This document shows, in pieces, positions 13,363 through 34,460 of a DNA stretch of 45,362 nucleotides. Source of the DNA: Candidatus Gastranaerophilales bacterium (GTDB lineage Bacteria; Cyanobacteriota; Vampirovibrionia; Gastranaerophilales; Gastranaerophilaceae). Location: the NCBI GenBank assembly GCA_947585605.1, contig CANPXC010000001.1, forward strand, positions 1 through 45,362, written 5' to 3'. The translations under genes and the position numbers were made by a program. The notes below the pieces were generated by a model, which was given only the letters and a program-made list of their open reading frames with translations, was not told the DNA's origin and ran no database searches. Each line of letters begins with the position of its first letter. Within the stretch, counting starts at the first letter, position 1.

Positions 13363-13824
13363 ATGCCGTTTAGATACAGATTACAAAAAGTACTCGATTT
13401 CAGAATAAAAAAGAAAGAAGAACAACTACAGCAAGTAATAAAAGCAAAAAATGAGGTTGACAGAATTCAAGGTTTAATCGATGACAATAACCGTGAAATT
13501 GCGGGCGTAATTCAAACAATGCACACAACTACCGATTTTAGAATGATGGATTCCTATGATAAATACTTAAAACATTTATACGAGAAAGGTGAAGAACTGG
13601 AAAAACAAAAGATTGAAGCGGAAAAAGCACTCGAAATCGAAAAACAGAAACTTGTTGAATGTGAAAAGGAAGTAAAAGTTCTTGAAAAACATAAAGAAAA
13701 GATGATTGAAGCTTATAATGAAGAACAAAAACAAATAGAAATAAAACAGTTATCAGAAGTTGCGGTTCAAAAGTATTTCCAAAAAACAAGAGAAAAAAAA
13801 GAAGACGAAGGCGAAGACATTTAA
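13363..13824 (+). CDS. fliJ: Flagellar export chaperone FliJ-like coiled-coil protein
   Basis: 153 aa. N-terminus MPFRYRLQKVLDFRIKKKEEQL resembles the FliJ start (F.F.L..VL..R). All-helical charged sequence; followed by fliK-like and flgE-like genes. Confidence 0.55.
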   Translation: MPFRYRLQKVLDFRIKKKEEQLQQVIKAKNEVDRIQGLIDDNNREIAGVIQTMHTTTDFRMMDSYDKYLKHLYEKGEELEKQKIEAEKALEIEKQKLVECEKEVKVLEKHKEKMIEAYNEEQKQIEIKQLSEVAVQKYFQKTREKKEDEGEDI

Positions 13825-13835
13825 AAGGGTTTAAT

Positions 13836-14456
13836 ATGAAAGTTGAAAATCAAATAAAACAAAATATTGAAAATAAAGAATTAAATGTTCCCATGACTGA
13901 AGAAGAAATGAATGTTTTAAATTCGCAAGGCGGCGCATTTATAGACGTATTAAATCAAAATATTCCTTCAGACGAAACTCAGGATTTTTCGGATTTAGAT
14001 ATTGATTACAATTATGATTCTTTGATGATGTCAATAGAAGACGCAATGTTTTTTGTAAATCTGGCAAGAGAAGGGCAATTCAGTATTGAAGTCAATCCGA
14101 ACGGCAGTTTTAGTAATATTATGCAGCTTGAAGTCGCGCAGACCTCGGTTACTCAAAAAAATGTTGAAATAACAAATAATTTAATTAATTTGATAGAAAA
14201 AGCACAAAATACTCAAAAGCCCGTACGTATTACCTTTGATAATGATGTATCCGTTATATTAAAAATAGATAAACACGGTAAAGTTACGGCAGAATTTATT
14301 CCCGGCAGTGCGGAAGTTGAAAATTATTTAAGGAATAATATAGCCTCATTAAAACAGCGTTTTGACGAGCAAAACCTTCCTTATAATGATTTATTGTACA
14401 GGCAGAATAACAGACAAAATAAAGGAAAAGATAAAAATAATAAAGGAGATAAATAA
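13836..14456 (+). CDS. Possible hook-length control protein (FliK C-terminal-domain-like)
   Basis: C-terminal VRITFDNDVSVILKIDKHGKVTAEFIPGSAEVENYLRNNIASLKQRFDEQNL resembles the Flg_hook domain pattern. Position between fliJ and a hook/rod gene fits; the protein is short (206 aa). Confidence 0.4.
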   Translation: MKVENQIKQNIENKELNVPMTEEEMNVLNSQGGAFIDVLNQNIPSDETQDFSDLDIDYNYDSLMMSIEDAMFFVNLAREGQFSIEVNPNGSFSNIMQLEVAQTSVTQKNVEITNNLINLIEKAQNTQKPVRITFDNDVSVILKIDKHGKVTAEFIPGSAEVENYLRNNIASLKQRFDEQNLPYNDLLYRQNNRQNKGKDKNNKGDK

Positions 14457-15292
14457 TGCGTGACGCATTTATAACTGCAGTTAATGCTCAAAAAGTTACA
14501 AATAACTGGATTCGTGATATATCAGAAAACTTAATTAATGCATATACCCCCGGATACCGCGAAAGACAATTTACGTTTAAGACCTTTTTAGACGGTGCTA
14601 TCGGGGATAATTCTTTAAGAAATATCGGGCAGGGTAAATCTTCTCCGGGTACTTCTGATGAAAATATATATCTGGAAGGCAGCGGTTATTTTGTATTAAG
14701 AAATGATAAAGGACGTCTTGTTTATACAAGGCTGGGTGAATTTAAATTTGACGGTGAAGGCGTTTACAGAAGCTCTGACGGTCAAGCTGTTCAAGGATAT
14801 ATTTTAAATGATAAAGGTGAAATAATGAACGGTGCAAAACCGGTTGACGCCGAATCATTTATTGATACGGCTTTTGACGGCGGTGCAGCTTCTGTTCCCA
14901 CAACTAATATTAAATTATGGATTGACCCATCTAATGGTAAATATTTAGGCAAATATGAAGAATTCGAGTTTAAGGATGACGGCATATTGTACGGAAAAGC
15001 CGATGGCGGAAAGATTAAGACTCCGTTATATAAAGTCGCAATAATAAATTTCCATAATCCGCAGCAGTTATTTCAAGTTGCGGAAGGACAATTTGTGGAA
15101 ACTGAGGCTTCCGGAAGACCTGTTGTAGGCAGAGGAGAAGTCAGAGGCGGATTGATAGAATTATCAAATGTTGATTTTGACGCTAACACAACGTATTATC
15201 AACAGGCTCAAACCCAACTGGATATGGCGAATGCTTTAATTAAATCTCACAGACAATTACTGCAAAACGCTATAGAACTTATGGAAGGTTAA
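14456..15292 (+). CDS. Flagellar hook / distal rod family protein (FlgE/FlgG-like, short form)
   Basis: N-terminal rod motif (ISENLINAYTPGYRE, cf. NIAN.NT.GFK) and C-terminal LIELSNVDFDANTTYYQQAQTQLDMANALIKSHRQLL (cf. LE.SNVD...E...MI..QR.YQAN). Start overlaps the upstream stop. Confidence 0.65.
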   Translation: MRDAFITAVNAQKVTNNWIRDISENLINAYTPGYRERQFTFKTFLDGAIGDNSLRNIGQGKSSPGTSDENIYLEGSGYFVLRNDKGRLVYTRLGEFKFDGEGVYRSSDGQAVQGYILNDKGEIMNGAKPVDAESFIDTAFDGGAASVPTTNIKLWIDPSNGKYLGKYEEFEFKDDGILYGKADGGKIKTPLYKVAIINFHNPQQLFQVAEGQFVETEASGRPVVGRGEVRGGLIELSNVDFDANTTYYQQAQTQLDMANALIKSHRQLLQNAIELMEG

Positions 15293-17523: not shown

Positions 17524-18123
17524 TTGGAAATAAAACTGCCTGAGAATATTCCCGCAAGAGCGAGGGAAGAACTTTTAAAACTTTTACGGGGAAATCGTAA
17601 TTTTGTAAATTCTACACCAACCGCAAAAAATATGTGTTTGGAAACTTTAAGAAAGTATGCATTTCATCAGGAACCTTATGCAGTGGTATTAAGTTGTTCT
17701 GATTCAAGAGTTGTGCCTGAAATAATTTTTGATTGCGGAATAGGAGAGTTATTTGTTGTACGAGTTGCTGGTATTACTGCGGGTGATAATGTTATAGAAA
17801 GTATTGAGTACGGAGTAAAAAAATTAAAAGTACCTCTTTTAATTCTGCTTGGCCACGATGATTGCGGAGTTATGAAGTACGCAAAAGACCATTATCCCGT
17901 TATGACAGAGGATTTTAAATCGATTATGTCATGTGTATATCCTGTACTGGATAAAAATGAAGACATAACATGCCATAATTTTTTTGCAATGCAGCATACT
18001 TTATGGGTAGAAGATGTTCTTATGCAAAAGTCTAAAATTATAAGAAATGCTGTTAATAATTCGGAATTATACATAGCAAAGTGCCATTTCGACCATTCAA
18101 CCGGGCTTGTTGAACTGATTTAA
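17524..18123 (+). CDS. Beta-class carbonic anhydrase
   Basis: Zinc ligand motifs CSDSR and GHDDCG with correct spacing. TTG start follows AAGGTGA. Confidence 0.85.
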   Translation: MEIKLPENIPARAREELLKLLRGNRNFVNSTPTAKNMCLETLRKYAFHQEPYAVVLSCSDSRVVPEIIFDCGIGELFVVRVAGITAGDNVIESIEYGVKKLKVPLLILLGHDDCGVMKYAKDHYPVMTEDFKSIMSCVYPVLDKNEDITCHNFFAMQHTLWVEDVLMQKSKIIRNAVNNSELYIAKCHFDHSTGLVELI

Positions 18124-18193: not shown

Positions 18194-18214
18194 TTAATAT
18201 CTTTGAGATATTAA
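18194..18214 (+). promoter_or_regulatory. Perfect 9-bp inverted repeat abutting the SD of the giant gene
   Basis: TTAATATCT (18194-18202) TTG AGATATTAA (18206-18214). The SD-like AAAGGA starts at 18214; ATG is at 18226. Confidence 0.3.
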
Positions 18215-18225
18215 AAGGATATATT

Positions 18226-21200
18226 ATGAGAATTAATCAAATCGGTGTTAACAGAATAAATTTTAAGAGTACAAGAACGGATATAAACACTGTAAAGACT
18301 TTAAAAACAGGTACTTTACCAATAAGTGAAAATAAAAAGATAAATATTTATAATTCTTTGGCAAATATTTCAAAAGCACCCGACAGAGCCGGCATAGAAG
18401 TTTTGCTTGATGTAGCCGATAATTTAGCATATGGGCAGGGAGGAAACTCTGAATATAAAAGTCTTTTAAATGCAACGGGGAATACTCCCGAAGAAAGAGA
18501 AAATACTGATTGGACATTAATTCTTAAAAACACGATTGAACAGGCTTTAAATACTGTTGACGAACAAGAAAATCAAGATTTAAAAGCAAAATTTGAGCAA
18601 ATATTTAACGGAGGGAAAAAAGAATTAACTCCTGTTCAAAAGGAAATTTTGGATATCAGAAATAATTTATTAACCGAAGTTCTTAATTATGATAAATTTG
18701 AGGATGAAACATCCCTTCTGCATGCCGCAAATATAAGAAAAAATCTTGATTATTTTGCTGCGTCATCGGAAATAAGTGCGCAGCAGAAAAAAGAGTGTTT
18801 TGAAAAATTTGTTTATTTTTTAAGTGATGATTATAAAATCCAGCCGCAGCTTGAGGATAAAAAATTACAGGCACTTGATGAAATTTTAACTGATATGCTG
18901 GTAAAAACGCCGGAGAGTGAAATATTAACTACAAAAGATATTGACCAAAGGCAATCCGGAATATGTGCAGCGATTTCAATATGCCGAAAAGCTTTGGCTT
19001 ATGAAGATAAAGTCAGATATTTAGATGTTATAATGCAAGAATTAAGTGCTTCTCCGTATATGGAAGTTTTTGATATAACCGCATTAGGCAGCGGAAAGAA
19101 AGTCAATATAGAAAAAGCCGATATTAACTATGATTCTGCGTTATCAAGAGGATACAGAATTATCGACGCTTCTGCTCATACCTGGATGCAAAATGCACAC
19201 GCAAGCGGCGACGGAACAATCCTAACGGAAAAATATACTGCATTTGATGAGGATAATTACGGTATATATGATGATTCCAGCTGGTATGAAGGCTTGGGAG
19301 AAGAATATCAGACCTCTAAGAATTTTTTAAAAGCGTTGATAAAAGAGCGTGAAGAATTAAAACTTATTGATAAGAAAAAGAAAGAAATTAAAGCTTTAAC
19401 ACAAGGGTTGTATTCATCAAAAGAGAAGCTGCTTAATGAATTATCAAGTATATCAGCCTTAACTAATAAAATGCTGGGGTCAATTTTTCCGGATTATTCA
19501 AATGAACAAGTGACTGCTCTATATAAAAATATAATAAAATTTTATAAAGGAAACAGCGAAAATAATGAGGTAAATATCCCTCAAAAACTGGATAAAAGTT
19601 TAAAAGTTAATATTTTAAGTGATTATATAAAGTCGCAAGTCCCTGATATTACGGAAACACAAACGGAAAAATTAAGTGAATTATCGGAAAAAATATATAA
19701 TAGTGTTAGTGCGTATTGCGAAACGGAAAATAATTTAGATAAAGCAAAAAAATATTCTTCAAAAACTGCAAAATACAGATACAATCAAAATTTATACCGT
19801 GCCGCAGCCGCTCATCGTATAGCGATTGAAGCTGATTTAGACATGCCGGACGGAGAGATAAGATATGAAAAAGCACTCGGTTTAGAACCGGAGAATTATA
19901 GAGGTGCTGATTATCTCAGAAAAATATCCGCTTCTTTAGCTTCCGAAGATGTCAGAAAAAAATATGCACAAGAAACTTCTGAAATTCCTTCAAAGGAAGA
20001 ATTAGAAAAAGAATTAAATTTTGATATTCTCAAATTAGAAAGCCTTATACCCGCAAAATTTGACAGACTTTTGGATGATATGTTAGGTAAAAGTTTGGCG
20101 CAATTGTTGTCAGATATGTTTGCACAGGTAAAAACTTCAATTTTGGAAGAAGATGAAACCTCTTTACACACAATGGCGGCAAATTTGAGAATTAAACCCG
20201 ACAGTAAAGAAGTAATAAAAAAGATTGAAGATTGGCAGCAGAAACTGAGCGATAATGAAGATAAAGAATATAAAAACGTAAGTGAAGCTGCGAGAATATT
20301 AGGCTTTAAAAATATTACAATGGCTGTAAATGCTTTTGTAGCTTCATTTTATAAATCATTGCAAAGCGGGATATCGGAAGAAGAATTTGAAAGACTTTCT
20401 AATAAATACGGACAAGAAAATTTATCCGCAGTACTGGAAAATTTAAGAAATGAATTTTTTGAAATAAAAGAAGAATACGAAAATATATTTTCAAAATGGG
20501 ATATACCATCTTCAAAAAGCATAATAATTAAAAGATTTGAGAAAGAAAATCTTGTTTTATCGCGCAGCAAGCTAAATAAACTTAAACAAAAATTTGATTT
20601 TATAGCCAACAGAACCGCATATAATTCAATGTATATACAAAACATAAAAGCGAGAAAAAAAGCTAATGAAAAAGTAATGAATTTTTCAAACGAAGAACAA
20701 GCTATTTTTGAGCAAATAGAAAAATCGCTTCCGGAAATGAAGTCATATAGTAAACGCAGTTATAATTCAATGAATAATATGCTCTTTGACAAATTAGAGG
20801 AGCAGTATGCATATATCGGAAAATTAAACGGACAATTTTGGGTAAGGGAAGAAGGCTCATCAGGGCTTACGTCAAACGAGCAGTTGAGAATAATAGAACA
20901 AATAACCGGCAGACCGTATCACATAGAAAGCGATATAACTGAAGCTGTAAAGGTTATAAAGGAAGGTGAAGGAAGCGGAATAATATCAACAAGTGTTGAT
21001 GATACTGATTATGCATTCCATGCACAATATGTTCCTGCCGTAACGGAAGAAACGTTTACAAATCCGTTAACGGGCAAAAATAATAAAGAAGATGTTTTAT
21101 GGACTGATAATTCTTGGGGATATGCAGAAAAGGAACATTATTGGAACGGCCGTGACGGGCATGAATATACGGACTACGGTAACGGATGGGGCTGGAAGGA

Positions 21201-24051
21201 CGGATTTATAGTGGATAAATCTATGAAAATCGGTCAGCCTGTAAGAGTTATAAAAGGTGCTGTGGGCGTTGAGAAAGAAGAACAAGTAAAATTCGGATTA
21301 TATAATGACATGATATTGCCCGGGGCAGCGGTAAGGGGACATCAAAAAATATTTAATCTGATAAACAGTATGCTTAATACAAATAAATGCGCTCAAAGAT
21401 ATGAAGCATTAGAAAAAGCGATTGCTCAAGGATATAAATTATCTCCGGATTACTTGGAACACTTGGATGAAGGCGCTCAATTAAAGGCGGAACGCCTTGA
21501 AAAACGTTTGGAAAAAGAAATTAATTCAAAGGAAGATTTTGATAAACTTCAAGATAATGACGATTTAAAAATCATTATGGAAAAAATTTCTTTGTATATG
21601 TCTACTGATAATCCGATTTTAAAAAATATGGTTGCAGCTTGCAGTGATATGGAGGAATTAAGTGAAGTAAAAAAAGATTTTATGTATGATTATATTGATA
21701 CATTTAAGGAGATAATGGGAAAATCTGAAGAAACTCTTTCTAATATCAAAGCATACATAAAAAATGATTTTATAAATTTATATAAAGAAATTGTTGATAA
21801 ATATTCGGAAGAAGCCGATAAACAAAAAATGGAAGACGTATTGGATCAGTTATTTGACGGCTCAATATTAAATGATAATAAATTCAACGGAAATATAGAT
21901 GACTTAGAAAATATTCTTTTAAATCATGTTGTAAAAACTGCATTTGATAATTTAAATGATGAAGAAGCAGCAATTCATTTTATTGACGGTACTCAAAAGT
22001 TAATAAAAGAAGCAATAAATAAAGGAATAAGGATAAATTCGCTTGAAAGTCCTAATTTGGTTAATAATCCGCTAAGCGAATACTTTATAGCCGCTATAGA
22101 TAAATATTTAAATCCAAAATCCGATGAAGAACTGTTAAATATAATACAAAGCTTCCAAAAGGCTGATAATAAAACGGCGGAAGACTTTTTAAATGCCTTA
22201 ACGGAAGAAGATTTCGGGTTATTCTTTAAACCTGCTTATGACTATTTGGAAAGATATAAAGCTGAAGATTCAGCTGTTATAAGAGTATTTAACGAAATAG
22301 CAGGCATAGAGGAAATATATGATTTTATCCGCATGTCCGGTGAAGATGATGAGGATAAGGCATTACCGGATGAAATATACAGAGATTTATACGTAAAACT
22401 TACTAATATGGACGTACAGAAGTATGTTAAAAACTTCAAAGCCGAAGCATTTGAAAAATATAAGCTTAGACAAGCATTCCCTCAGCCCGTTGTAATTAGT
22501 GATGATGATATTATTACATCGGCAAATAATTTTATTACGGAAATAAGAGATACGGTTGGCAGTATATTTAATTATGATGAAACATTGGAATTGTTTTCAT
22601 TGTATACGGAATTTTGCGATAATCACAAGGATGATGAAATATATAAATCAATGCTTGAGGGTAAAAAAGTTGACGTAAATCAAGAATATATTGAGTCTTT
22701 AAAGTCGGAATTAACGCCAATTTATCAATATTTGTGTAAAGATGAAACATTTAAGGATATAACAAATCCTTTAGCTAATATGATAAGTTATTTGAGTGAT
22801 GAAAATTCATTACATAAAAATATGAAACGCTTTAATAAATGCTTAAAAACTTTCACAAGCAATTTTGATGATTTTCTTCAAGGCGGATTAACCATAGATA
22901 GAACTATAGGAAATAAGAATGATGAACTAAAAACATTCAAACAAAATATAAGCTTATACGTAAATTCAACAATTCAAGCGAAATATAGAAACGGCGCAAT
23001 AATCAGAGTAAAAAATCTGATAAATCTGTATAAAAATAATGCTCCTCAAGATGAGATAGACTATGCATATTATGATTTTATTGGATATACAATATTAAGG
23101 CATATTACAAAAAATCCCGTTGCATTGTTGAATGAGTGTGTAAAAGATGTACAAAAAGGCAAAAAGGACACGTTAGAATATAAATATAAAAAGGAATTTT
23201 TACAAGCAACGCTTCGGGTTGCGCAGCAGACAAATATTCAATATTCATTGGTTAAAAATCAGCATGAGGGAATTGATTCCAAGATAAAGGATGTATTACC
23301 TTATTTCGTTGTATATAAATCAGAAGGAAATTCTTCGGCAACTACCGTTGATGAATTAAATGAATCAAGCGGAATTAATTATTTAATCGCCCAATTAGAT
23401 AATGCCCAGGATAATCATACAACTTTAAATTTGTTTCTTGAACAGGCAGGATTATCCCGTGACGCCGTAAATGCTCTTATTGAAAATTTTAATATTGAAA
23501 AAATGAAAAAATTGACAAACGAAAAAGCAGCTGAAATTATTCAGGATTCTGCGGATTTAAAAGTATTAAAAGGTGTTCATGATGATTATTACAGAAAAGC
23601 TCATATAAGATATAAATCAATAGAAGACGCTTTTAATCAATTCGCCTCTTATGCGGAAAGAAAAACAAGAAAACATTCAAATTCTAAATTAATTCAGTCT
23701 TTTATATATAATTTAAGGAATACAAAAGTCCAAGAAAATACATTATCCCCGAATGGTTCATTATTTAAAGAATTTATGCAGATGATAACATTGGAATTGT
23801 TGGATTCTGAACTGGATAAAGTAAACGGGAAATTTAATTATATAGCGGAACTATATAATACTTCAGTCGAGTTTACTGATTTAATAAACGCAATAAAAGT
23901 TCCTCAAGATAGTAGTGAATACAAGGCTCGTGAAGAATTTGTCGAAAAAATAAATGAAGCAAAACAATACTGCAATCAAGTTCTTGGTAAATTATCACAA
24001 GTAGTGGAAGCAACTAACGGCATAAAATTTGATAGTAATGAAGAATTATAG
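18226..24051 (+). CDS. Giant (1941 aa) signal-less protein with a PepC/bleomycin-hydrolase-like (papain-clan) cysteine-peptidase signature
   Basis: Uninterrupted 5.8-kb ORF with SD. DQRQSGIC (Q241, C247), YAFHAQ (H932), WTDNSWG (N962) and GNGWGWKDGFIV. The rest is helical and D/E/K/N-rich, with no other motif recognised. Confidence 0.8.
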   Translation: MRINQIGVNRINFKSTRTDINTVKTLKTGTLPISENKKINIYNSLANISKAPDRAGIEVLLDVADNLAYGQGGNSEYKSLLNATGNTPEERENTDWTLILKNTIEQALNTVDEQENQDLKAKFEQIFNGGKKELTPVQKEILDIRNNLLTEVLNYDKFEDETSLLHAANIRKNLDYFAASSEISAQQKKECFEKFVYFLSDDYKIQPQLEDKKLQALDEILTDMLVKTPESEILTTKDIDQRQSGICAAISICRKALAYEDKVRYLDVIMQELSASPYMEVFDITALGSGKKVNIEKADINYDSALSRGYRIIDASAHTWMQNAHASGDGTILTEKYTAFDEDNYGIYDDSSWYEGLGEEYQTSKNFLKALIKEREELKLIDKKKKEIKALTQGLYSSKEKLLNELSSISALTNKMLGSIFPDYSNEQVTALYKNIIKFYKGNSENNEVNIPQKLDKSLKVNILSDYIKSQVPDITETQTEKLSELSEKIYNSVSAYCETENNLDKAKKYSSKTAKYRYNQNLYRAAAAHRIAIEADLDMPDGEIRYEKALGLEPENYRGADYLRKISASLASEDVRKKYAQETSEIPSKEELEKELNFDILKLESLIPAKFDRLLDDMLGKSLAQLLSDMFAQVKTSILEEDETSLHTMAANLRIKPDSKEVIKKIEDWQQKLSDNEDKEYKNVSEAARILGFKNITMAVNAFVASFYKSLQSGISEEEFERLSNKYGQENLSAVLENLRNEFFEIKEEYENIFSKWDIPSSKSIIIKRFEKENLVLSRSKLNKLKQKFDFIANRTAYNSMYIQNIKARKKANEKVMNFSNEEQAIFEQIEKSLPEMKSYSKRSYNSMNNMLFDKLEEQYAYIGKLNGQFWVREEGSSGLTSNEQLRIIEQITGRPYHIESDITEAVKVIKEGEGSGIISTSVDDTDYAFHAQYVPAVTEETFTNPLTGKNNKEDVLWTDNSWGYAEKEHYWNGRDGHEYTDYGNGWGWKDGFIVDKSMKIGQPVRVIKGAVGVEKEEQVKFGLYNDMILPGAAVRGHQKIFNLINSMLNTNKCAQRYEALEKAIAQGYKLSPDYLEHLDEGAQLKAERLEKRLEKEINSKEDFDKLQDNDDLKIIMEKISLYMSTDNPILKNMVAACSDMEELSEVKKDFMYDYIDTFKEIMGKSEETLSNIKAYIKNDFINLYKEIVDKYSEEADKQKMEDVLDQLFDGSILNDNKFNGNIDDLENILLNHVVKTAFDNLNDEEAAIHFIDGTQKLIKEAINKGIRINSLESPNLVNNPLSEYFIAAIDKYLNPKSDEELLNIIQSFQKADNKTAEDFLNALTEEDFGLFFKPAYDYLERYKAEDSAVIRVFNEIAGIEEIYDFIRMSGEDDEDKALPDEIYRDLYVKLTNMDVQKYVKNFKAEAFEKYKLRQAFPQPVVISDDDIITSANNFITEIRDTVGSIFNYDETLELFSLYTEFCDNHKDDEIYKSMLEGKKVDVNQEYIESLKSELTPIYQYLCKDETFKDITNPLANMISYLSDENSLHKNMKRFNKCLKTFTSNFDDFLQGGLTIDRTIGNKNDELKTFKQNISLYVNSTIQAKYRNGAIIRVKNLINLYKNNAPQDEIDYAYYDFIGYTILRHITKNPVALLNECVKDVQKGKKDTLEYKYKKEFLQATLRVAQQTNIQYSLVKNQHEGIDSKIKDVLPYFVVYKSEGNSSATTVDELNESSGINYLIAQLDNAQDNHTTLNLFLEQAGLSRDAVNALIENFNIEKMKKLTNEKAAEIIQDSADLKVLKGVHDDYYRKAHIRYKSIEDAFNQFASYAERKTRKHSNSKLIQSFIYNLRNTKVQENTLSPNGSLFKEFMQMITLELLDSELDKVNGKFNYIAELYNTSVEFTDLINAIKVPQDSSEYKAREEFVEKINEAKQYCNQVLGKLSQVVEATNGIKFDSNEEL

Positions 24052-24121: not shown

Positions 24122-24397
24122 ATGAAAAAATTATTGGTTGCAATTTCATTAATTATATTAGTATTAGATATAGTTCCTCCGGTTTATGCTTTAAACGTAG
24201 GAACGTATAAAACCGAAACTGAATATGGTTTGTTAGACGGATTTAAAATTAATTGGAAAAGAAAAGATAAATCAAAACCGTTTATAGAACCGAGAGAAGG
24301 TTCTACGCAAAGAGATAAAGAAATAGAAATGCGTCAATATAAAGAAGATGAATACCAGCGTACAAAATATATGTATGACGGAATGGCAATAATATAA
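24122..24397 (+). CDS. Small exported protein, unknown function
   Basis: 91 aa, signal peptide MKKLLVAISLIILVLDIVPPVYA, SD AGAGG upstream. No terminator between it and the giant gene. Confidence 0.5.
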   Translation: MKKLLVAISLIILVLDIVPPVYALNVGTYKTETEYGLLDGFKINWKRKDKSKPFIEPREGSTQRDKEIEMRQYKEDEYQRTKYMYDGMAII

Positions 24398-24529: not shown

Positions 24530-26308
24530 TTACAGAATGTTTGAAGTAAGTGTAAAGTGGAATCTTGCAGTATTTCTGTCCATATTGTTAGCATAATCCG
24601 CCCAGCGTCTGCCGATAGGGAAACCCCAATACATGTTAGCGGAGATGTATTTAGTAAGCTTAACAATAATACCCGGACCTGCACTCATTAAGTATTGAGT
24701 ATGACTTGAGTCAACATCAGACCATTGGAATCTGTTACCGACCCAGCCGATATCATAGAATGCAGCGAGTTGAATACTGTCGCTGATAAATTTGTATTTT
24801 TCAGGTAAAACAGCTCTGAACCCGGGGATTGGGAATCTGTATTCAAAGCTTGCATTCATACCGTAGTCACCAATGAAGAAGCCTTCATCATAACCTCTAA
24901 CAGAGGAAATACCACCGATTTGCATCGCTTCTGAACCCCAAAGGTGTCTGTTTGCGTATTGACCGTTAACTTGTAATAACATTAACTGATTTGCAGGTAA
25001 TACTTGTAAACGTGCAGCCCCTGCATTAACTTTAACGAAGTTATTGCTTGCCATATTGCGGGCTTTGTTATAATCGGAAGCATCGATAGGAATACCGCCG
25101 GAAACTGAACCGTTGAATAACCATCTTCCGTAGTAATCATCTTTAACATCAGTTAAGCTTGCTTTAAGAACTCTTGTTCTGTAGTCGGTTAATATGTCGT
25201 CTAAAATTTTGTGACCTGAAGATAAATCGGTATTACGTAAATCTAAAGTGATATCACCATATAATCTGTAATCTTCACCTTTTGCTAATCTTCTTGATAC
25301 ACCGATGAATACGTCATGAGATTCACCTTTGATATCCAAGTATTTTAAAGCTTTACCGAGTCTTACGTTAGAGTATGAATAGCCGACATTTAATCTGGTA
25401 TCATTTTTAGCAATCGGAATAGAATAAATACCGCCTGCACCTAATGAACGAGATGACAGAGCGACCGTACCCATTAAAGTATCGCCGTGGCCTGTAACAT
25501 CATGTAAACCGGCATATAAAACGCCTCTTTGAGTACCGATAGCTTCACGACCTTGGTTATCGTATCTTAAGTCTAAGTTAATCGGGAATCTGTCTTTAAC
25601 GTCAAGAGAAACATCCGAATATTCTTCTGATTCTTCGTTATCAGCGAAAGAAACAGAACCTTTCATATATTCTTCCGTAGACATTTCCGTTAATGCATTA
25701 CGAACATCTTTAACGTTTAATACTTTACCCGGTTGAATATTGTTATCTGATAAATAGTGTTTATTTAAGTATGAAGAACGCTCCCATTTACCGGGGTTAA
25801 TTTCAACATTACCATATTTACCTTCTAAGATTTTGATTTCAATAACTCCGTTTTGAACTTTTTGCGGAGGGAGGTAAGCCATTGTTGAAAGATAGCCTTT
25901 TCCTTGATAGTAGTCTGTAATTTCATTTGCAGACATAATTAAATCGTTAATTGTAACTTCTTGACCTATTTTAAAATCGACAAGTCTCATTAAAACATAA
26001 GTAGGGAAAACAGTGTTTCCGGTAATTTTAATGTCTTTTAATTTAAATGAAACTTGTTTTGTATTAAGTAAATCCATTTTCTTTTGGATTTCAGCTTCAA
26101 CAACAGCAGGGTTTTTAGTTTCCACATATTTTGTTTGTGCTTCATATTCTTTTCTTTGAATGAAGTTGCTGTTATCGATAAGACCTGCATCATAACCGCC
26201 GGTATTAGCCGGAATATTTGTCGGAATAACGGTGTCAGCTGCGAAAGCCGGCACACTGAGCATTAATGATGCACATAATAAAGTTGTTTTTAGTAATGTT
26301 TTTTTCAT
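24530..26308 (-). CDS. Two-partner-secretion outer-membrane transporter (TpsB; ShlB/FhaC/HecB family)
   Basis: Signal peptide MKKTLLKTTLLCASLMLSVPAFA. POTRA-like LKDIKITGNTVF...INDL...ITDYYQGKGYLSTMAYLPPQKVQNGVIEIKILEGKYG. Long beta-barrel-type C-terminal part. Adjacent to three TpsA-like genes. Confidence 0.85.
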   Translation of the reverse strand: MKKTLLKTTLLCASLMLSVPAFAADTVIPTNIPANTGGYDAGLIDNSNFIQRKEYEAQTKYVETKNPAVVEAEIQKKMDLLNTKQVSFKLKDIKITGNTVFPTYVLMRLVDFKIGQEVTINDLIMSANEITDYYQGKGYLSTMAYLPPQKVQNGVIEIKILEGKYGNVEINPGKWERSSYLNKHYLSDNNIQPGKVLNVKDVRNALTEMSTEEYMKGSVSFADNEESEEYSDVSLDVKDRFPINLDLRYDNQGREAIGTQRGVLYAGLHDVTGHGDTLMGTVALSSRSLGAGGIYSIPIAKNDTRLNVGYSYSNVRLGKALKYLDIKGESHDVFIGVSRRLAKGEDYRLYGDITLDLRNTDLSSGHKILDDILTDYRTRVLKASLTDVKDDYYGRWLFNGSVSGGIPIDASDYNKARNMASNNFVKVNAGAARLQVLPANQLMLLQVNGQYANRHLWGSEAMQIGGISSVRGYDEGFFIGDYGMNASFEYRFPIPGFRAVLPEKYKFISDSIQLAAFYDIGWVGNRFQWSDVDSSHTQYLMSAGPGIIVKLTKYISANMYWGFPIGRRWADYANNMDRNTARFHFTLTSNIL

Positions 26309-26671
26309 TTGTCCGCTCTCTATATTATAATATTATTTCTACTTATATTACATTCTATATAATACTACAGAAAAAATAAAATATGTAACAATATTAATTT
26401 TATTATAAATTATTATTTCCGAATATTGTATAAACCAATTATATGAAATATAAACAAATTATATTTTGCGTGAAATTAAAATATTTATAACATATCTTAA
26501 CAAAATAATTATTTATAAATTTATTTGTTATATATTAATTTTTATTAACATTAATTATTTATTTGACAAAAAAAATTATGTGTGGACTTTAAATCTTTTG
26601 TGTGAATTTTGATACAGATTAAGAGATGTATTTTTAGGCTAAAAAATATAAAGAGAATGGAGAGACTAAGA

Positions 26672-29173
26672 ATGAAAAAATTATTAGGGAGTGCAATTGC
26701 ATTAAGTGTTGTTTTTTCAACTTCACTTCTAAGTCCTGTATTCGCCGCAGGTGTTCTGGATCCAAATACTTTGCCTGATTTAAACAGAGCTGAAAACGGT
26801 AAAGTCGGTATCGGCGATAATCATGATATGAATGTTCAGGTACAAGGCGGGCAAGGTAGTGTAGGTCAATTCTGGTGGAATAATTTTAATGTCGGAAGTA
26901 ATGCTTCCGTAAATTTTGAATTTTCGGCACATAATCAAACCGCATTGAATAAAGTAGAACAAACAGGCGGTATGTCGCAAATATTCGGTCAAATAACAAA
27001 TTCGGGATGTGCGACTTGCGGTTATGAAGGAACGGGGAAAGTAATACTTATCAACCCAAACGGTGTATTGTTCGGCGACGGCGCAAATGTTAACTTAAAT
27101 TCTTTTACAGTTTCAACATTTAACGGTGATTATGATTCAAACTCAGGCGCATTGAAACTTCAAAGACAAGAAAACGCAGGCGATATTAATGTAATGGGTA
27201 ATGCCCGCATACATGGTGAAGAAGGCGTAAATTTTGCGGCTACAAATATAAATTTATATAACGGTTCTAAAATCTCAACAGGATTAGCTAATAATTTTAA
27301 TAATAATACCTCTGCAATGGGAAAAGTAAAATTGGTTACGGGTGATGGAGTTACATTTAATTATTACAACAGCGGTTCCGTAAAAGATGCGGATGTAAAA
27401 ACCTCAAAAGATAAAATGGTAATACAGGTTAACGGCGAAATAGAAGCCGGAAATATTGATATAAGAAATTATTCAAGCAATGAAGGAAGCCAAATAAATT
27501 TAAAGAATGCAAATTTAAAAGCTGTTAAGGCAGTAAAAGGCAATGACGGCAGTATTTGGCTGACAGCTGCAAATGATATTGTAATCGGAGAATCAAATAT
27601 TACAACATCTAATGCTGAAGGCGCCGAAAATCCAACGGGCGGTGATGTGTTAATCCAAGCGGGAAGAAAAGTTACATTACGTTCTTCCGAAGACGGAGAA
27701 GTTAAAACAATTGTTAATGCCGTTGGTAATGTTGATTTGATATCAACAAAATCCGATGTTCTTTTAAACGACTCAATAGTTAATGCCGCAGGCAAGGTTA
27801 ATGTAACAGCTGCTAATGTTGCTGCTCTTGAAAACGGAGCTAAAATTAAATCAGGAGCTGATATTACTTTGAACGGTAAAAACAGAACTCAAATTATTGA
27901 CGGCTCGGATGTAACAGCTGAAAACGGAAATATATTAATTCTTTCTGATAAACTGGTTTGGGCTGCAAATGGTGCAAAAGTTACGGCAAATAACGGTAAT
28001 GTTAATGTTGAATCTCAAAGCGGAGATATACAATTATCAGATACAACCTTAAGTGCTGACAACAATGATGTAACTTTAAAATCGGCAGGGTCTATAACAT
28101 CTGAAAAATTAAAAGGTTCAATTTTAGCAGGCAGAAATGTCGGCTTGGAATCAACTCAAAAGGATGTAATTCTTTCCTCCGTTTCTCAGTTTGAAACACC
28201 GCAAGACGGAGCATTTAATCTTAAAGCTGCTAATAACGTTGAAATTAACTCGGAAGCTGATTTAAACTTAAATGACAAAAATTACAACTTTGAAGCAGGC
28301 AATAATATATTTTTAACCTCTCAAGGAGATGTAAATATTGACAGGCACTCAGGTTTCATATCAGCTGAAAATATTTACGTAACTTCCGGTAATAATTTAA
28401 ATATAGATACGGATTTAAATAACATACAAACAAATTTATCTGCGGGAAATGATTTAACAGCAACGCTTAGTAATGCAGGAACCCGTGAAAAAGGTTTAAT
28501 AGCAACAGCAGTAAATGATATGACGATAAATTCGGACGGAACGCTATATTTATCAAAATTGGTATCGGGCAATAACATGACATTAAATGCCGATAAAATT
28601 GCAGCAGCTGCACCGTTTACGGAGGAATATTTAAAGGAAGAAGGTGACAGCACGGGCAGAGCATATATAGAAGCAGGCGGAATTTTTGAAACATCAGCCG
28701 ATTATACAATAACTGACTCTGCCGAAAAAGTTCAGACAAACGGTAAAATATACGGCGACAGACATCATCTGTATTTTGAAGGCGAAAACGGTGAAAATGA
28801 AAATTTCCTTCTTGTAAATAAAAAACAAATAGGGACCTCTCCTTCTACTGAAATACCGGAACCTGAAATACCGGAAATTCCGAGTACGGAAGATAAAGAA
28901 GTTGTAGATCCCGATAATTTAGGCGGAGATGTTGATCCTTCAATCCCAGGCGGCGGAGAAGTAAAACCCCCTGTTGATCCGGATAAAGAATGTGAAAAAG
29001 AACCAGAAAATCAAGAAATAAATCCGGAAGAACATCCGCAATTGCCCGAAGTTGATTATGGAGATTACGGCGACGGCGGTGACTCAAGAGTTGAAGACGG
29101 AGATTTAGACTTATCAAGTATATCAAACACCGTTTCATCATATATCTTTGAACAAGAAGTTAAAAAACATTAA
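26672..29173 (+). CDS. TpsA-like secreted beta-helix protein 1 (haemagglutination-activity/TPS domain), 833 aa
   Basis: ATG 26672 follows GGAGAG. Signal peptide. TPS-domain blocks FNVG..ASV.FEFS...ALN.VE..G.SQI.G and LINPNGVLFGDGANVNLNSFTVST. Repetitive beta-helix-type sequence, acidic Pro-rich tail. Confidence 0.85.
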   Translation: MKKLLGSAIALSVVFSTSLLSPVFAAGVLDPNTLPDLNRAENGKVGIGDNHDMNVQVQGGQGSVGQFWWNNFNVGSNASVNFEFSAHNQTALNKVEQTGGMSQIFGQITNSGCATCGYEGTGKVILINPNGVLFGDGANVNLNSFTVSTFNGDYDSNSGALKLQRQENAGDINVMGNARIHGEEGVNFAATNINLYNGSKISTGLANNFNNNTSAMGKVKLVTGDGVTFNYYNSGSVKDADVKTSKDKMVIQVNGEIEAGNIDIRNYSSNEGSQINLKNANLKAVKAVKGNDGSIWLTAANDIVIGESNITTSNAEGAENPTGGDVLIQAGRKVTLRSSEDGEVKTIVNAVGNVDLISTKSDVLLNDSIVNAAGKVNVTAANVAALENGAKIKSGADITLNGKNRTQIIDGSDVTAENGNILILSDKLVWAANGAKVTANNGNVNVESQSGDIQLSDTTLSADNNDVTLKSAGSITSEKLKGSILAGRNVGLESTQKDVILSSVSQFETPQDGAFNLKAANNVEINSEADLNLNDKNYNFEAGNNIFLTSQGDVNIDRHSGFISAENIYVTSGNNLNIDTDLNNIQTNLSAGNDLTATLSNAGTREKGLIATAVNDMTINSDGTLYLSKLVSGNNMTLNADKIAAAAPFTEEYLKEEGDSTGRAYIEAGGIFETSADYTITDSAEKVQTNGKIYGDRHHLYFEGENGENENFLLVNKKQIGTSPSTEIPEPEIPEIPSTEDKEVVDPDNLGGDVDPSIPGGGEVKPPVDPDKECEKEPENQEINPEEHPQLPEVDYGDYGDGGDSRVEDGDLDLSSISNTVSSYIFEQEVKKH
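26771..27625 (+). repeat. Conserved 855-nt TPS module, copy 1 (dispersed direct repeat)
   Basis: From LPDLNRAENG to NAEGA. Collinear without gaps with 29443..30297; long stretches are nearly identical at nucleotide level by eye. Confidence 0.75.
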
Positions 29174-34402: not shown

Positions 34403-34460
34403 TTGACTTAATTTTTTCGTTTAAGTAACATATTATTGGGATATGAGGGAATTTGAATTT

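What the first reader, a model, noticed from the sequence alone, without database searches (positions are those of the whole stretch)
18226..24051. 1941-aa signal-less giant protein with a PepC/bleomycin-hydrolase-like catalytic signature spread over about 720 residues
Seen directly: D-Q241-R-Q-S-G-I-C247 (nt 18946-18966) places Gln exactly six residues before Cys. That is the oxyanion-Gln/nucleophile-Cys spacing of papain-clan enzymes. As I recall it, this is close to the C1B (PepC/bleomycin hydrolase) block Q-K-x-S-G-R-C-W. F-H932-A (nt 21019-21021) is followed 30 residues later by W-T-D-N962-S-W-G (nt 21109-21111 for Asn) and then G-N-G-W-G-W-K-D-G-F-I-V. These mirror the H...(V/E)NSWG...G.KGY(F/I) blocks. 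Cys and His are 685 residues apart, against roughly 300 in PepC as I remember it, so several hundred residues would be inserted inside the fold. A further about 980-aa helical, D/E/K/N-rich extension follows. That is incompatible with the classical C1B arrangement, in which the C-terminus sits in the active site. There is no Sec signal. I cannot place this architecture in any described family.
Basis: partly seen in the sequence, partly recalled or inferred. Interest (0 to 1): 0.8.

Follow-up and report, generated by a model that had tools for sequence, protein, structure and literature searches.

The report
Giant split papain-like protease, Gastranaerophilales-specific
This 1,941-residue gene encodes a previously unnamed family of gut-bacterial (Gastranaerophilales) proteins whose papain-type cysteine-protease domain is cut in two by a ~510-residue helical insertion; the catalytic residues are kept in every known relative, but what the enzyme cuts is unknown.

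Summary
All four residues, plus W964 of the N-S-W-G motif, are invariant in 182 of 182 full-length relatives.

No sequence profile (Pfam, NCBIfam, PDB) recognises any part of the protein, so the PepC/bleomycin-hydrolase assignment is not supported.

Joining the two conserved blocks (aa 225-352 and 862-1040) gives a confident AlphaFold model (pLDDT 83, pTM 0.83). Its nearest solved structures are almost all papain-fold (clan CA) cysteine peptidases, with falcipain-2 best (E 1.5e-4). C247 sits at a helix N-terminus, H932 in a beta-strand, and N962 just after the next strand, as in papain.

The 510-aa insert is all-helical. It leaves and returns on two long helices. It is never absent: Cys-His spacing is 461-777 in all members.

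The family is found only in Gastranaerophilales/Melainabacteria-type genomes (136 species genomes). It has no signal peptide, no membrane segment and no conserved gene neighbour, and it is under purifying selection throughout.

Best reading: a new, isolated clan-CA peptidase family, probably an intracellular protease with restricted substrates. The substrate is unknown.

The parts
18214..18219 (+). AAAGGA ribosome-binding site, 6 nt before the ATG at 18226
   Evidence: Read directly from the sequence. M1 is invariant in homologues, so the start codon is correct.
18226..24051 (+). Complete ORF, 1,941 aa plus stop. Member of an unnamed family of roughly 1,820-2,480-aa proteins.
   Evidence: Purifying selection throughout.
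18226..18270 (+). aa 1-15: N-terminal tail, modelled as disordered (pLDDT 25). It ends at the start of the conserved motif F13-K-x-x-R17-x-D19, which continues into the next part.
   Evidence: Its role is unknown (targeting signal, degron or pseudo-substrate are all speculation).
18271..18900 (+). aa 16-225: all-alpha N-terminal domain of about 10 helices
   Evidence: AF2 model of aa 1-1200, pLDDT mostly 85-94. No credible PDB neighbour.
18901..19287 (+). aa 226-354: first half of the papain-like domain (L-type subdomain). Oxyanion Gln241 is at nt 18946-18948 and nucleophile Cys247 at nt 18964-18966, immediately before helix 248-260.
   Evidence: This is among the most conserved stretches of the protein (aa 181-330). 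dN/dS is 0.01-0.09.
19288..20835 (+). aa 355-870: all-helical insertion inside the catalytic domain. It exits on a 62-residue helix (359-420) and returns on a 47-residue helix (822-868).
   Evidence: Present in every family member, with Cys-His spacing 461-777. Fast-evolving: 39% mean identity against 78% for flanking genes, dN/dS 0.09-0.20. No PDB neighbour.
20836..21333 (+). aa 871-1036: second half of the papain-like domain (beta-rich R-type subdomain). His932 is at nt 21019-21021, in strand 931-936. Asn962 is at nt 21109-21111, just after strand 952-960. Trp964 is at nt 21115-21117. The G-x-x-G-[YF]-I block is at aa 989-996.
   Evidence: Foldseek matches to falcipain-2/3 and CdiA-CT papain-like toxins cover about 150 columns even in the contiguous model.
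21334..24048 (+). aa 1037-1941: C-terminal region. It is helical where modelled (1039-1193) and acidic. It has no invariant catalytic-type residues; only P1297, P1631 and G1742 are invariant.
   Evidence: No internal repeats. No Pfam, NCBIfam or PDB sequence match. Residues 1201-1941 were not modelled.

Best explanation
The gene encodes the type of a new, isolated family of papain-fold (clan CA) cysteine peptidases confined to Gastranaerophilales (non-photosynthetic relatives of cyanobacteria living in guts).

Proposed catalytic mechanism, inferred by analogy with papain:
- C247 is the nucleophile at the N-terminus of a helix.
- H932 is the general base, in a beta-strand of the second half of the domain.
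- N962 orients the histidine, and W964 shields that pair.
- Q241, six residues before the Cys, helps form the oxyanion hole.

The two halves of the domain lie 500 residues apart in sequence and come together in three dimensions. The ~510-residue all-helical insertion leaves and re-enters the domain on two long helices. Together with the all-helical N-terminal (aa 16-225) and C-terminal (~900 aa) regions, it most likely acts as a scaffold that restricts access to the active site or selects substrates.

The enzyme would therefore be an intracellular protease with restricted or regulated specificity rather than a bulk degradative one.

Shown: the intact ORF, conservation, purifying selection, fold similarity, secondary-structure positions of the catalytic residues, helical nature of the insert, and absence of export signals.

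Inferred: actual catalysis, cytoplasmic location, and the gating or substrate-selection role of the helical parts. The substrate is unknown.
For: - Q241, C247, H932, N962 and W964 are invariant in 182/182 full-length members and in 35 members down to 22% identity.
- The two conservation peaks, aa 181-330 and 871-1000, coincide with the two half-domains.
- The spliced half-domains fold confidently: pLDDT 83.4, pTM 0.83.
- In the Foldseek PDB search, about 30 of the 32 best matches are clan CA enzymes. These include falcipain-2 1yvb (E 1.5e-4, prob 1.0, 305 aligned columns covering both halves), staphopains, papain-like CdiA-CT toxins, phytochelatin-synthase-like Alr0975, cathepsin S, a C39-like peptidase and IdeS/Mac-1.
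- In the viral structure library the credible top matches are a phage 'Peptidase' (prob 1.0) and a phage C1A peptidase (prob 0.95).
- The contiguous aa 1-1200 model (pLDDT 84, pTM 0.73) keeps the same secondary structure in both halves and places C247 directly before helix 248-260, H932 in strand 931-936 and N962 after strand 952-960.
- The His-Asn spacing of 30, spanning a long beta-hairpin, equals that of falcipain-2 (His174/Asn204, which carries a beta-hairpin 'arm' exosite; PMC12617615).
- dN/dS is 0.01-0.09 in the protease halves and 0.09-0.21 in the helical parts.
- The family occurs in 136 species genomes, and every one that carries a lineage name, apart from six probably mislabelled 'uncultured Muribaculaceae' records, is Gastranaerophilales/Melainabacteria-type.
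- There is no signal peptide and no TM segment, and no conserved neighbouring gene across clades.
Against: - No sequence profile links the protein to any peptidase family. hhalign against C1A gives E 0.12, and in that forced alignment H932 does not pair with papain His159.
- Foldseek TM-scores are low (0.3-0.5) and rmsd is high for the full-length matches.
- The tools gave no coordinates or residue-level structural alignment, so the Cys-His-Asn distances were not measured.
- The loop carrying Q241-C247 has only moderate confidence: pLDDT about 58 in the contiguous model and about 72 in the spliced one.
- The spliced construct is artificial.
- There are no biochemical or expression data.
- Cytoplasmic location rests only on the absence of recognisable signals.
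Confidence: 0.62

Rival explanations
1. A papain-fold enzyme that is not a general endopeptidase. It might be an isopeptidase (deubiquitinase-like or Ubl-deconjugating), an amidase, or a transferase using the same Cys-His-Asn chemistry on a non-protein or modifier substrate.
For: - The Foldseek list also contains non-classical papain-fold enzymes: phytochelatin-synthase-like Alr0975, UfSP, a chlamydial DUB, and CdiA-CT toxins.
- Large insertions between the Cys and His boxes are typical of USP deubiquitinases (my own knowledge of that family).
- The many invariant charged residues around the active-site blocks (R254, K255, E260, K262, R311, D314, E968) suggest a very specific ligand.
Against: - The best matches are true endopeptidases (falcipains, staphopains).
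- Gln at -6 together with N-S-W-G is the C1/C47-type peptidase signature.
- No ubiquitin-like, E1 or E2 genes appear in any of the neighbourhoods examined.
- No USP/UCH/OTU Pfam match.
Confidence: 0.17
2. A secreted toxin or effector, for example exported with help of the adjacent two-partner secretion genes, that acts on host or competitor cells.
For: - TpsB lies 0.5 kb downstream on the opposite strand and is followed by three TPS-domain genes.
- The same neighbourhood occurs in about 30 related loci, and also in L001 (where the giant protein is 30% identical) and L078.
- In another clade an ADP-ribosyltransferase exotoxin-domain gene follows the gene.
- The helical parts evolve about three times faster than the flanking genes.
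- The conserved, disordered N-terminal tail could be an export signal.
Against: - There is no Sec signal, no TPS domain, no RTX or other export motif and no TM segment.
- No neighbour is shared between the two synteny groups, and other contexts are housekeeping genes.
- Length and architecture are nearly constant, and no second copy in one genome was noticed among the loci returned (copy number was not systematically tested). This is unlike polymorphic toxins.
- dN/dS is well below 1 everywhere.
Confidence: 0.1
3. One reading: a PepC/bleomycin-hydrolase (family C1B) aminopeptidase that has acquired an insertion and a C-terminal extension.
For: The motif Q-R-Q-S-G-I-C resembles the recalled C1B block Q-K-x-S-G-R-C-W, and the D-N-S-W-G and G-x-x-G-[YF]-I blocks resemble C1 blocks (the recalled motif itself is unverified).
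Against: - PF03051 and PF00112 give no match at E<=10 on the full protein, on 25 diverse members, or on the spliced domain.
- No C1B structure is among the 50 Foldseek matches listed.
- About 980 residues follow the catalytic Asn, so the C-terminus-in-active-site arrangement that defines C1B action cannot apply.
- An exhaustive phmmer search of 1.84 billion representatives finds no unsplit or intermediate relatives.
Confidence: 0.04
4. A catalytically inert helical scaffold protein in which the protease-like motifs are vestigial or due to chance.
For: - Most of the protein (about 85%) is helical with no enzymatic signature.
- Q-x5-C alone is expected by chance about 0.44 times.
Against: - All five active-site residues are invariant in 182/182 members across identities down to about 22%.
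- The protease halves are the most constrained part, with dN/dS 0.01-0.09.
- Pseudo-enzymes normally lose the nucleophile or the base.
Confidence: 0.04

Closest known systems
Falcipain-2/3 and other papain-family (MEROPS C1A) peptidases
   Same: - Best structural matches.
- Same order Gln, Cys, His, Asn, with Gln six residues before Cys.
- Cys at a helix N-terminus, and His and Asn on adjacent strands.
- N-S-W-G with the shielding Trp, and a G-x-x-G-Y/F-I strand after it.
- The His-Asn spacing of 30 over a long beta-hairpin equals falcipain-2 His174/Asn204 with its 'arm' exosite (PMC12617615).
   Different: - No significant sequence or profile similarity.
- No signal peptide, no I29-type propeptide, and no cysteines at the disulfide positions.
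- A ~510-aa helical insertion lies between the two subdomains.
- About 225 aa precede and about 900 aa follow the domain.
- TM-scores are only 0.3-0.4.
Staphopains (C47) and minimal papain-like toxins (CdiA-CT of Citrobacter rodentium 8ssk/8ssm; toxin 9l5u)
   Same: Structural matches with prob 0.94-0.99 over about 157 columns and rmsd 3.9-7 A. They are bacterial, and the G-x-C-A motif around the nucleophile resembles staphopain (my recollection).
   Different: Those are small (140-180 aa), contiguous, secreted or delivered domains with immunity or inhibitor partners. No such partner or delivery module is present here.
USP deubiquitinases (C19, clan CA) and giant protease scaffolds such as separase or the herpesvirus UL36 tegument protein
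   Same: This is an analogy in how it works, not a membership claim. USP catalytic domains tolerate insertions of hundreds of residues between the Cys and His boxes. Separase and UL36 are proteins of more than 2,000 aa, largely helical, that carry one cysteine-protease domain whose access is controlled by the scaffold (established knowledge, not tested here).
   Different: No sequence or structural match to USP, UL36 or separase (clan CD) was seen. The resemblance is architectural only.
PepC / bleomycin hydrolase (C1B)
   Same: Cytoplasmic location without a signal peptide, and an S-G before the nucleophile Cys (recalled motif).
   Different: No profile match, not among the structural neighbours, and the C-terminal arrangement is incompatible.

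Membership tests
Clan CA (papain fold) cysteine peptidases | Two-lobed alpha+beta domain, with the nucleophile Cys at the N-terminus of a helix in the first lobe and His and Asn/Asp on beta-strands of the second lobe | tested here: met
   AF2 models: C247 lies directly before helix 248-260, H932 in strand 931-936, and N962 after strand 952-960. This rests on a predicted, not an experimental, structure.
Clan CA (papain fold) cysteine peptidases | Structural similarity to solved clan CA members | tested here: met
   Foldseek PDB: about 30 of the 32 best matches are clan CA, best 1yvb at E 1.5e-4, prob 1.0. BFVD top credible matches are peptidases. TM-scores are modest (0.3-0.5).
Clan CA (papain fold) cysteine peptidases | Catalytic residues in the order Gln, Cys, His, Asn and conserved | tested here: met
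   Invariant in 182/182 full-length members.
Clan CA (papain fold) cysteine peptidases | Cys-His-Asn within bonding distance; peptidase activity | not testable with these tools
   No coordinates or residue-level structural alignment were returned, and no biochemistry was possible.
Family C1A (papain; Pfam PF00112) | Significant match to the family profile | tested here: not met
   No PF00112 hit at E<=10 on the full protein, the spliced domain, or 25 members.
Family C1A (papain; Pfam PF00112) | Secretory or lysosomal precursor with signal peptide, inhibitory propeptide and conserved disulfides | tested here: not met
   No hydrophobic N-terminus. Only C247 and C253 lie within the two catalytic half-domains (Cys positions).
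Family C1B (PepC / bleomycin hydrolase; Pfam PF03051) | Significant match to the family profile | tested here: not met
   No PF03051 hit at E<=10.
Family C1B (PepC / bleomycin hydrolase; Pfam PF03051) | C-terminus lies in the active-site cleft shortly after the catalytic Asn block | tested here: not met
   819-1,611 residues follow the Asn in all members.
Family C1B (PepC / bleomycin hydrolase; Pfam PF03051) | C1B structures are the closest structural neighbours | tested here: not met
   None among the 50 Foldseek PDB matches listed.
Two-partner secretion exoproteins (TpsA) | N-terminal Sec signal plus TPS domain (PF05860) | tested here: not met
   No PF05860 hit and no signal peptide. The true TpsA genes are the next three ORFs.
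USP deubiquitinases (C19; Pfam PF00443) | Match to the Cys-box/His-box profile, or structural match | tested here: not met
   No Pfam hit. No USP among the Foldseek matches.

The most novel reading that the evidence does not exclude
This is the founding member of a new MEROPS-level family in clan CA. It would be a roughly 1,900-2,500-residue, lineage-defining intracellular protease machine of Gastranaerophilales, in which an obligatory ~500-residue helical arm inserted between the two lobes of the papain fold, together with the flanking helical domains, gates the active site or recruits one specific substrate. That would make it a bacterial functional analogue of scaffold-controlled proteases such as separase or the large USPs.
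Probability: 0.45. Interest if true: 0.65.

Novelty: new variant of a known kind. Interest (0 to 1): 0.55.

Why it matters
Gastranaerophilales are widespread in human and animal guts, yet almost nothing is known of their cell biology. A 5.8-kb gene kept at full length, under purifying selection, in at least 136 species genomes is likely to do something important for the lineage.

For protease biology this would add a new clan CA family. It would be an extreme case of a papain fold split by an insertion larger than the domain itself, which is useful for understanding how access to papain-type active sites can be controlled.

For annotation it turns a set of about 180 'hypothetical proteins' with no Pfam or NCBIfam coverage into a testable enzyme, with four defined point mutants to make.

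Tried and rejected
- **Sequence and profile searches.** These returned only chance-level hits: Pfam on the full protein, PDB phmmer, the PDB profile of 35 homologues, Pfam and PDB on the spliced domain, NCBIfam, Pfam on distant members, and Pfam on 25 diverse members.
- **hhalign against papain.** The result is not significant, and it misplaces the His.
- **First attempt at the spliced model.** I got round this by aligning the spliced window sequence with full-length homologues.
- **Search for unsplit or intermediate relatives.** An exhaustive phmmer search of 1.84e9 representatives found none.
- **Internal repeats.** A search for repeats or duplicated helical modules found none.
- **Guilt by association.** There are two unrelated synteny groups and no shared neighbour. 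The TpsB/TpsA adjacency was therefore judged to be conserved gene order within one clade rather than a functional link.
- **Positive-selection idea.** This was prompted by the fast divergence and was rejected because dN/dS is 0.09-0.21 in the fast parts.
- **Foldseek on the contiguous aa 1-1200 model.** The helical parts gave only non-specific helical matches with prob below 0.2.
- **Literature searches.** These found no description of the family.
- **Names for distant members.** The cluster look-up of distant members gave no names.
- **Not done.** A second profile search of the 5.8-billion-protein set was not spent, because the exhaustive search had already shown that the family is isolated.
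Full report

The ORF 18226..24051 on the + strand is intact. It is 1,941 aa, starts at an ATG, and has an AAAGGA ribosome-binding site 6 nt upstream. Translation places D-Q-R-Q-S-G-I-C at aa 240-247, F-H-A at 931-933, W-T-D-N-S-W-G at 959-965 and G-N-G-W-G-W-K-D-G-F-I-V at 985-996.

From the protein's own composition, a Gln six residues before one of the 11 Cys is expected about 0.44 times by chance. An N-S-W-G tetrapeptide is expected only about 0.0025 times. The motifs alone are therefore suggestive. What makes them real is conservation.

**2. A large, closed family in which the four residues never change**

A search of 5.8 billion proteins found 146 relatives. Nearly all are 1,850-2,000 aa and align over 98-100% of the query. 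None has a Pfam domain. The only names given are 'hypothetical protein [Candidatus Gastranaerophilales bacterium]'.

In an alignment of 35 members at 22-46% identity to the query, Q241, C247, H932 and N962 are invariant. So are A248-S251, A933-Y935, D961, W964 and G965. Conservation along the protein peaks at aa 181-330 and 871-1000, the two blocks that carry the motifs.

An exhaustive phmmer search of 1.84 billion cluster representatives, using the two blocks joined together, found only 146 proteins. All belong to the same family. Every full-length one matches in two separate stretches, and the single-stretch hits are short fragments.

Aligning all 182 full-length sequences retrieved (1,800 aa or longer) to HMMs of the two blocks gave these results:

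| Feature | Result |
|---|---|
| Q241, C247, H932, N962, W964 | identical in 182/182 |
| Cys-His spacing | 461-777 (median 683) |
| His-Asn spacing | 17-40 (median 30) |
| Residues after the Asn | 819-1,611 |

The split is therefore an ancient and obligatory feature of the family.

**3. What fold is it?**

Sequence methods find nothing:
- Pfam on the full protein gives only sub-threshold noise, with no Peptidase_C1 or C1_2 hit even at E<=10.
- PDB phmmer gives nothing.
- A PDB search with the family profile returns only designed helical bundles.
- Pfam and PDB searches with the spliced domain from ten members give nothing.
- NCBIfam gives nothing.
- Across 25 diverse members, no Pfam family recurs in more than two.
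It is not significant (E 0.21 and 0.12) and it misplaces the His.

Structure prediction is informative. I joined aa 225-352 to aa 862-1040 and used 34 full-length homologues as the alignment. AlphaFold2 gave a confident single domain with mean pLDDT 83.4 and pTM 0.83.

Foldseek against the PDB returned about 30 papain-fold cysteine enzymes among the 32 best matches:
- Falcipain-2 and -3 were best (1yvb, E 1.5e-4, probability 1.0). The alignments were about 305 columns, so they cover both halves.
- Staphopains A and C.
- The papain-like CdiA-CT toxin of Citrobacter and another papain-like toxin.
- Phytochelatin-synthase-like Alr0975.
- Cathepsin S, a C39-like peptidase, IdeS/Mac-1, UfSP and a chlamydial DUB.

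No PepC or bleomycin-hydrolase structure appears. In the viral structure library the only high-probability matches are a phage 'Peptidase' (probability 1.0) and a Streptomyces-phage C1A peptidase (0.95).

TM-scores are modest (0.3-0.5). This is a very divergent papain fold, not a close relative of any solved one.

**4. The domain in its native context**

A second model covered the contiguous aa 1-1200, with mean pLDDT 84.1 and pTM 0.73. It shows these regions:

| Residues | Feature |
|---|---|
| 1-14 | disordered tail |
| 16-225 | all-alpha domain |
| 241-354 | first protease half, with the same helices and strands as in the spliced model; C247 lies directly before helix 248-260 |
| 359-868 | wholly helical insertion, which leaves on a 62-residue helix (359-420) and returns on a 47-residue helix (822-868) |
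| 883-1032 | second, beta-rich protease half, with H932 in strand 931-936 and N962 immediately after strand 952-960 |
| 1039-1193 | helices |

This is the canonical papain arrangement: the nucleophile at a helix N-terminus, and His and Asn on the two strands of a hairpin, followed by Ser-Trp.

The 30-residue His-Asn spacing over a long hairpin is the same as in falcipain-2 (His174/Asn204). That enzyme carries a beta-hairpin 'arm' exosite (PMC12617615). The shared feature probably explains why falcipains rank first.

Foldseek on this contiguous model again finds falcipains (probability up to 0.96) and CdiA-CT, on about 150 columns. Given that length, these matches must cover only one half of the domain, most likely the beta-rich second half. 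The helical regions give only non-specific, low-probability matches.

Caveats:
- The tools return no coordinates, so I could not measure the C247-H932-N962 distances.
- The Q241-C247 loop has only moderate confidence (pLDDT about 58-72).

**5. Other properties**

- There is no signal peptide and no transmembrane segment, and no internal repeats at sequence level or profile level.
- The protein is acidic, with net charge about -73.
- Outside the protease halves there are almost no invariant polar residues; in the C-terminal 900 aa only P1297, P1631 and G1742 are invariant. The protease centre is therefore the only recognisable enzymatic site.

**6. Distribution and genomic context**

A scan of one genome per GTDB species found relatives in 136 species genomes. 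All records that carry a lineage name are Gastranaerophilales, Melainabacteria, Vampirovibrio or 'Cyanobacteria bacterium' MAGs from guts and rumens. The exception is a few TPA records titled 'uncultured Muribaculaceae', which look mislabelled.

The window itself is such a genome. Its flanking proteins are 85-90% identical to those of rabbit-gut Gastranaerophilales MAGs.

In the window the gene sits between two sets of neighbours:
- Upstream: flagellar genes, a LUD-domain gene and a beta-carbonic anhydrase.
- Downstream: a small secreted protein, TpsB (opposite strand) and three TPS-domain genes.

This order recurs in about 30 loci of the same clade, and also in L001 (30% identical giant protein) and L078. 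In the more distant clade the neighbours are entirely different: FtsZ, a TSCPD-domain gene, and sometimes an ADP-ribosyltransferase exotoxin-domain gene. Other members sit among housekeeping or polysaccharide genes. Clustering all flanking ORFs of 84 loci found no gene family that accompanies the giant gene in both groups. It behaves as a stand-alone gene.

**7. Evolutionary rate**

Mean pairwise amino-acid identity across 18 syntenic genomes:

| Protein or region | Mean identity |
|---|---|
| TpsB (neighbour) | 78.7% |
| Beta-carbonic anhydrase (neighbour) | 77.3% |
| Giant protein, whole | 44.4% |
| N-terminal domain | 50% |
| Protease halves | 67% and 65% |
| Insert | 39% |
| C-terminal region | 39% |

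For the closest genome pairs, dN/dS is 0.01-0.09 in the protease halves, which is like the neighbours at 0.02-0.10. It is 0.09-0.21 in the helical parts. The whole protein is therefore under purifying selection. It is a real, functional gene with a tightly constrained catalytic core and more loosely constrained helical scaffolding. I found no sign of gene-wide positive selection.

**8. Most likely mechanism**

*Shown:* a conserved, intact gene under purifying selection. Its two most conserved segments, 500 residues apart, co-fold in the model into a papain-like domain carrying an invariant Gln/Cys/His/Asn/Trp set at the canonical secondary-structure positions. An obligatory helical insertion sits on a two-helix stalk. 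The flanks are helical. There are no export signals.

*Inferred:* a C247 thiolate / H932 imidazolium pair oriented by N962, with an oxyanion hole from Q241. Catalysis would occur on peptide (or possibly isopeptide) bonds. The location would be cytoplasmic. The helical insert, N-domain and C-region would act as a gate or a substrate-recruiting scaffold.

The closest architectural precedents are USP deubiquitinases, which tolerate very large insertions between their Cys and His boxes, and giant scaffold-controlled proteases such as separase or herpesvirus UL36. These rest on my own knowledge and are analogies only. No sequence or structural match to them was seen.

I put about 0.8 on 'an active papain-fold cysteine hydrolase' and about 0.6 on the full statement including the intracellular, restricted-substrate role. 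The substrate is unknown.

**9. Rivals**

- *A non-classical papain-fold enzyme (isopeptidase, amidase or transferase).* This cannot be excluded. I give it about 0.17.
- *A secreted toxin or effector.* The TPS neighbourhood and the fast-evolving helices suggest it. Against it: no signal or TPS domain, the constant architecture, no shared neighbours across clades, and low dN/dS. About 0.1.
About 0.04.
- *An inert scaffold.* This is contradicted by the perfect conservation of the active site. About 0.04.

**10. Comparison with known families, and novelty**

Membership of clan CA is supported at fold level, from a predicted structure. Membership of family C1 (A or B), C47, C19 or any other Pfam- or NCBIfam-defined family is not supported. 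The literature searches found no description of this protein.

I classify it as a new variant of a known kind. The catalytic fold is known. What is new is an isolated family with an unprecedentedly large, obligatory insertion in a giant helical protein restricted to one bacterial order.

Interest is moderate (0.55). The finding is solid and yields directly testable mutants in a poorly understood gut lineage. The chemistry is conventional, however, and the biological role remains open.

Noticed in passing
window 18226-24051 compared with 17524-18123 and 24530-26308; loci L006-L049: The giant protein diverges far faster than its syntenic neighbours. Mean pairwise identity is 44% against 77-79% for the beta-carbonic anhydrase and TpsB across 18 genomes. 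One example pair has TpsB at 98% identity but the giant protein at 71%. dN/dS nevertheless stays at 0.01-0.21, so this reflects relaxed constraint on the helical parts rather than positive selection.
   Followed up: yes
window 24530-26308 (-), 26609-29173, 29362-32115, 32401-34353 (+): A two-partner secretion locus: a ShlB/FhaC-type TpsB followed by three tandem genes that each begin with a TPS secretion domain. A TPR-repeat protein follows at 34443-36194. The cargo domains of the three TpsA proteins were not examined.
   Followed up: partly
window 24122-24397 (+): A 91-aa ORF with a clear signal peptide and no Pfam match, conserved at 64-83% identity in most of the 38 related loci that carry it (37-54% in three more distant ones). 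In the more distant locus L001 it stays next to TpsB rather than next to the giant gene.
   Followed up: partly
L003 16034-16741 (and 5 other loci of the distant clade): In the distant clade of the family, an ADP-ribosyltransferase exotoxin-domain gene (PF03496, 235 aa) lies immediately downstream of the giant gene. A TSCPD-domain gene and ftsZ lie upstream in 15-20 loci.
   Followed up: no
L005, L017, L021, L035, L043, L051 (genome contigs records): Six GTDB species-representative records titled 'uncultured Muribaculaceae bacterium' carry this Gastranaerophilales-specific gene. L005 and L017 also show Gastranaerophilales-like neighbours. These are probably mislabelled third-party MAG submissions.
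   Followed up: no
window 13363-15292 (+): Flagellar genes (FliJ-like, FliK-like hook-length control, and an FlgE/FlgD-type hook protein) lie 3 kb upstream. This is consistent with a flagellated Gastranaerophilales genome. The arrangement is syntenic in about 30 related loci.
   Followed up: partly
window 18226-18285 (aa 1-20): The extreme N-terminus is predicted to be disordered (pLDDT 25), yet it carries an invariant M1, F13 and R17 and a near-invariant D19 (F-K-x-x-R-x-D). A conserved motif in a disordered tail could be a targeting signal, a degron or a pseudo-substrate. This is unexplained.
   Followed up: no
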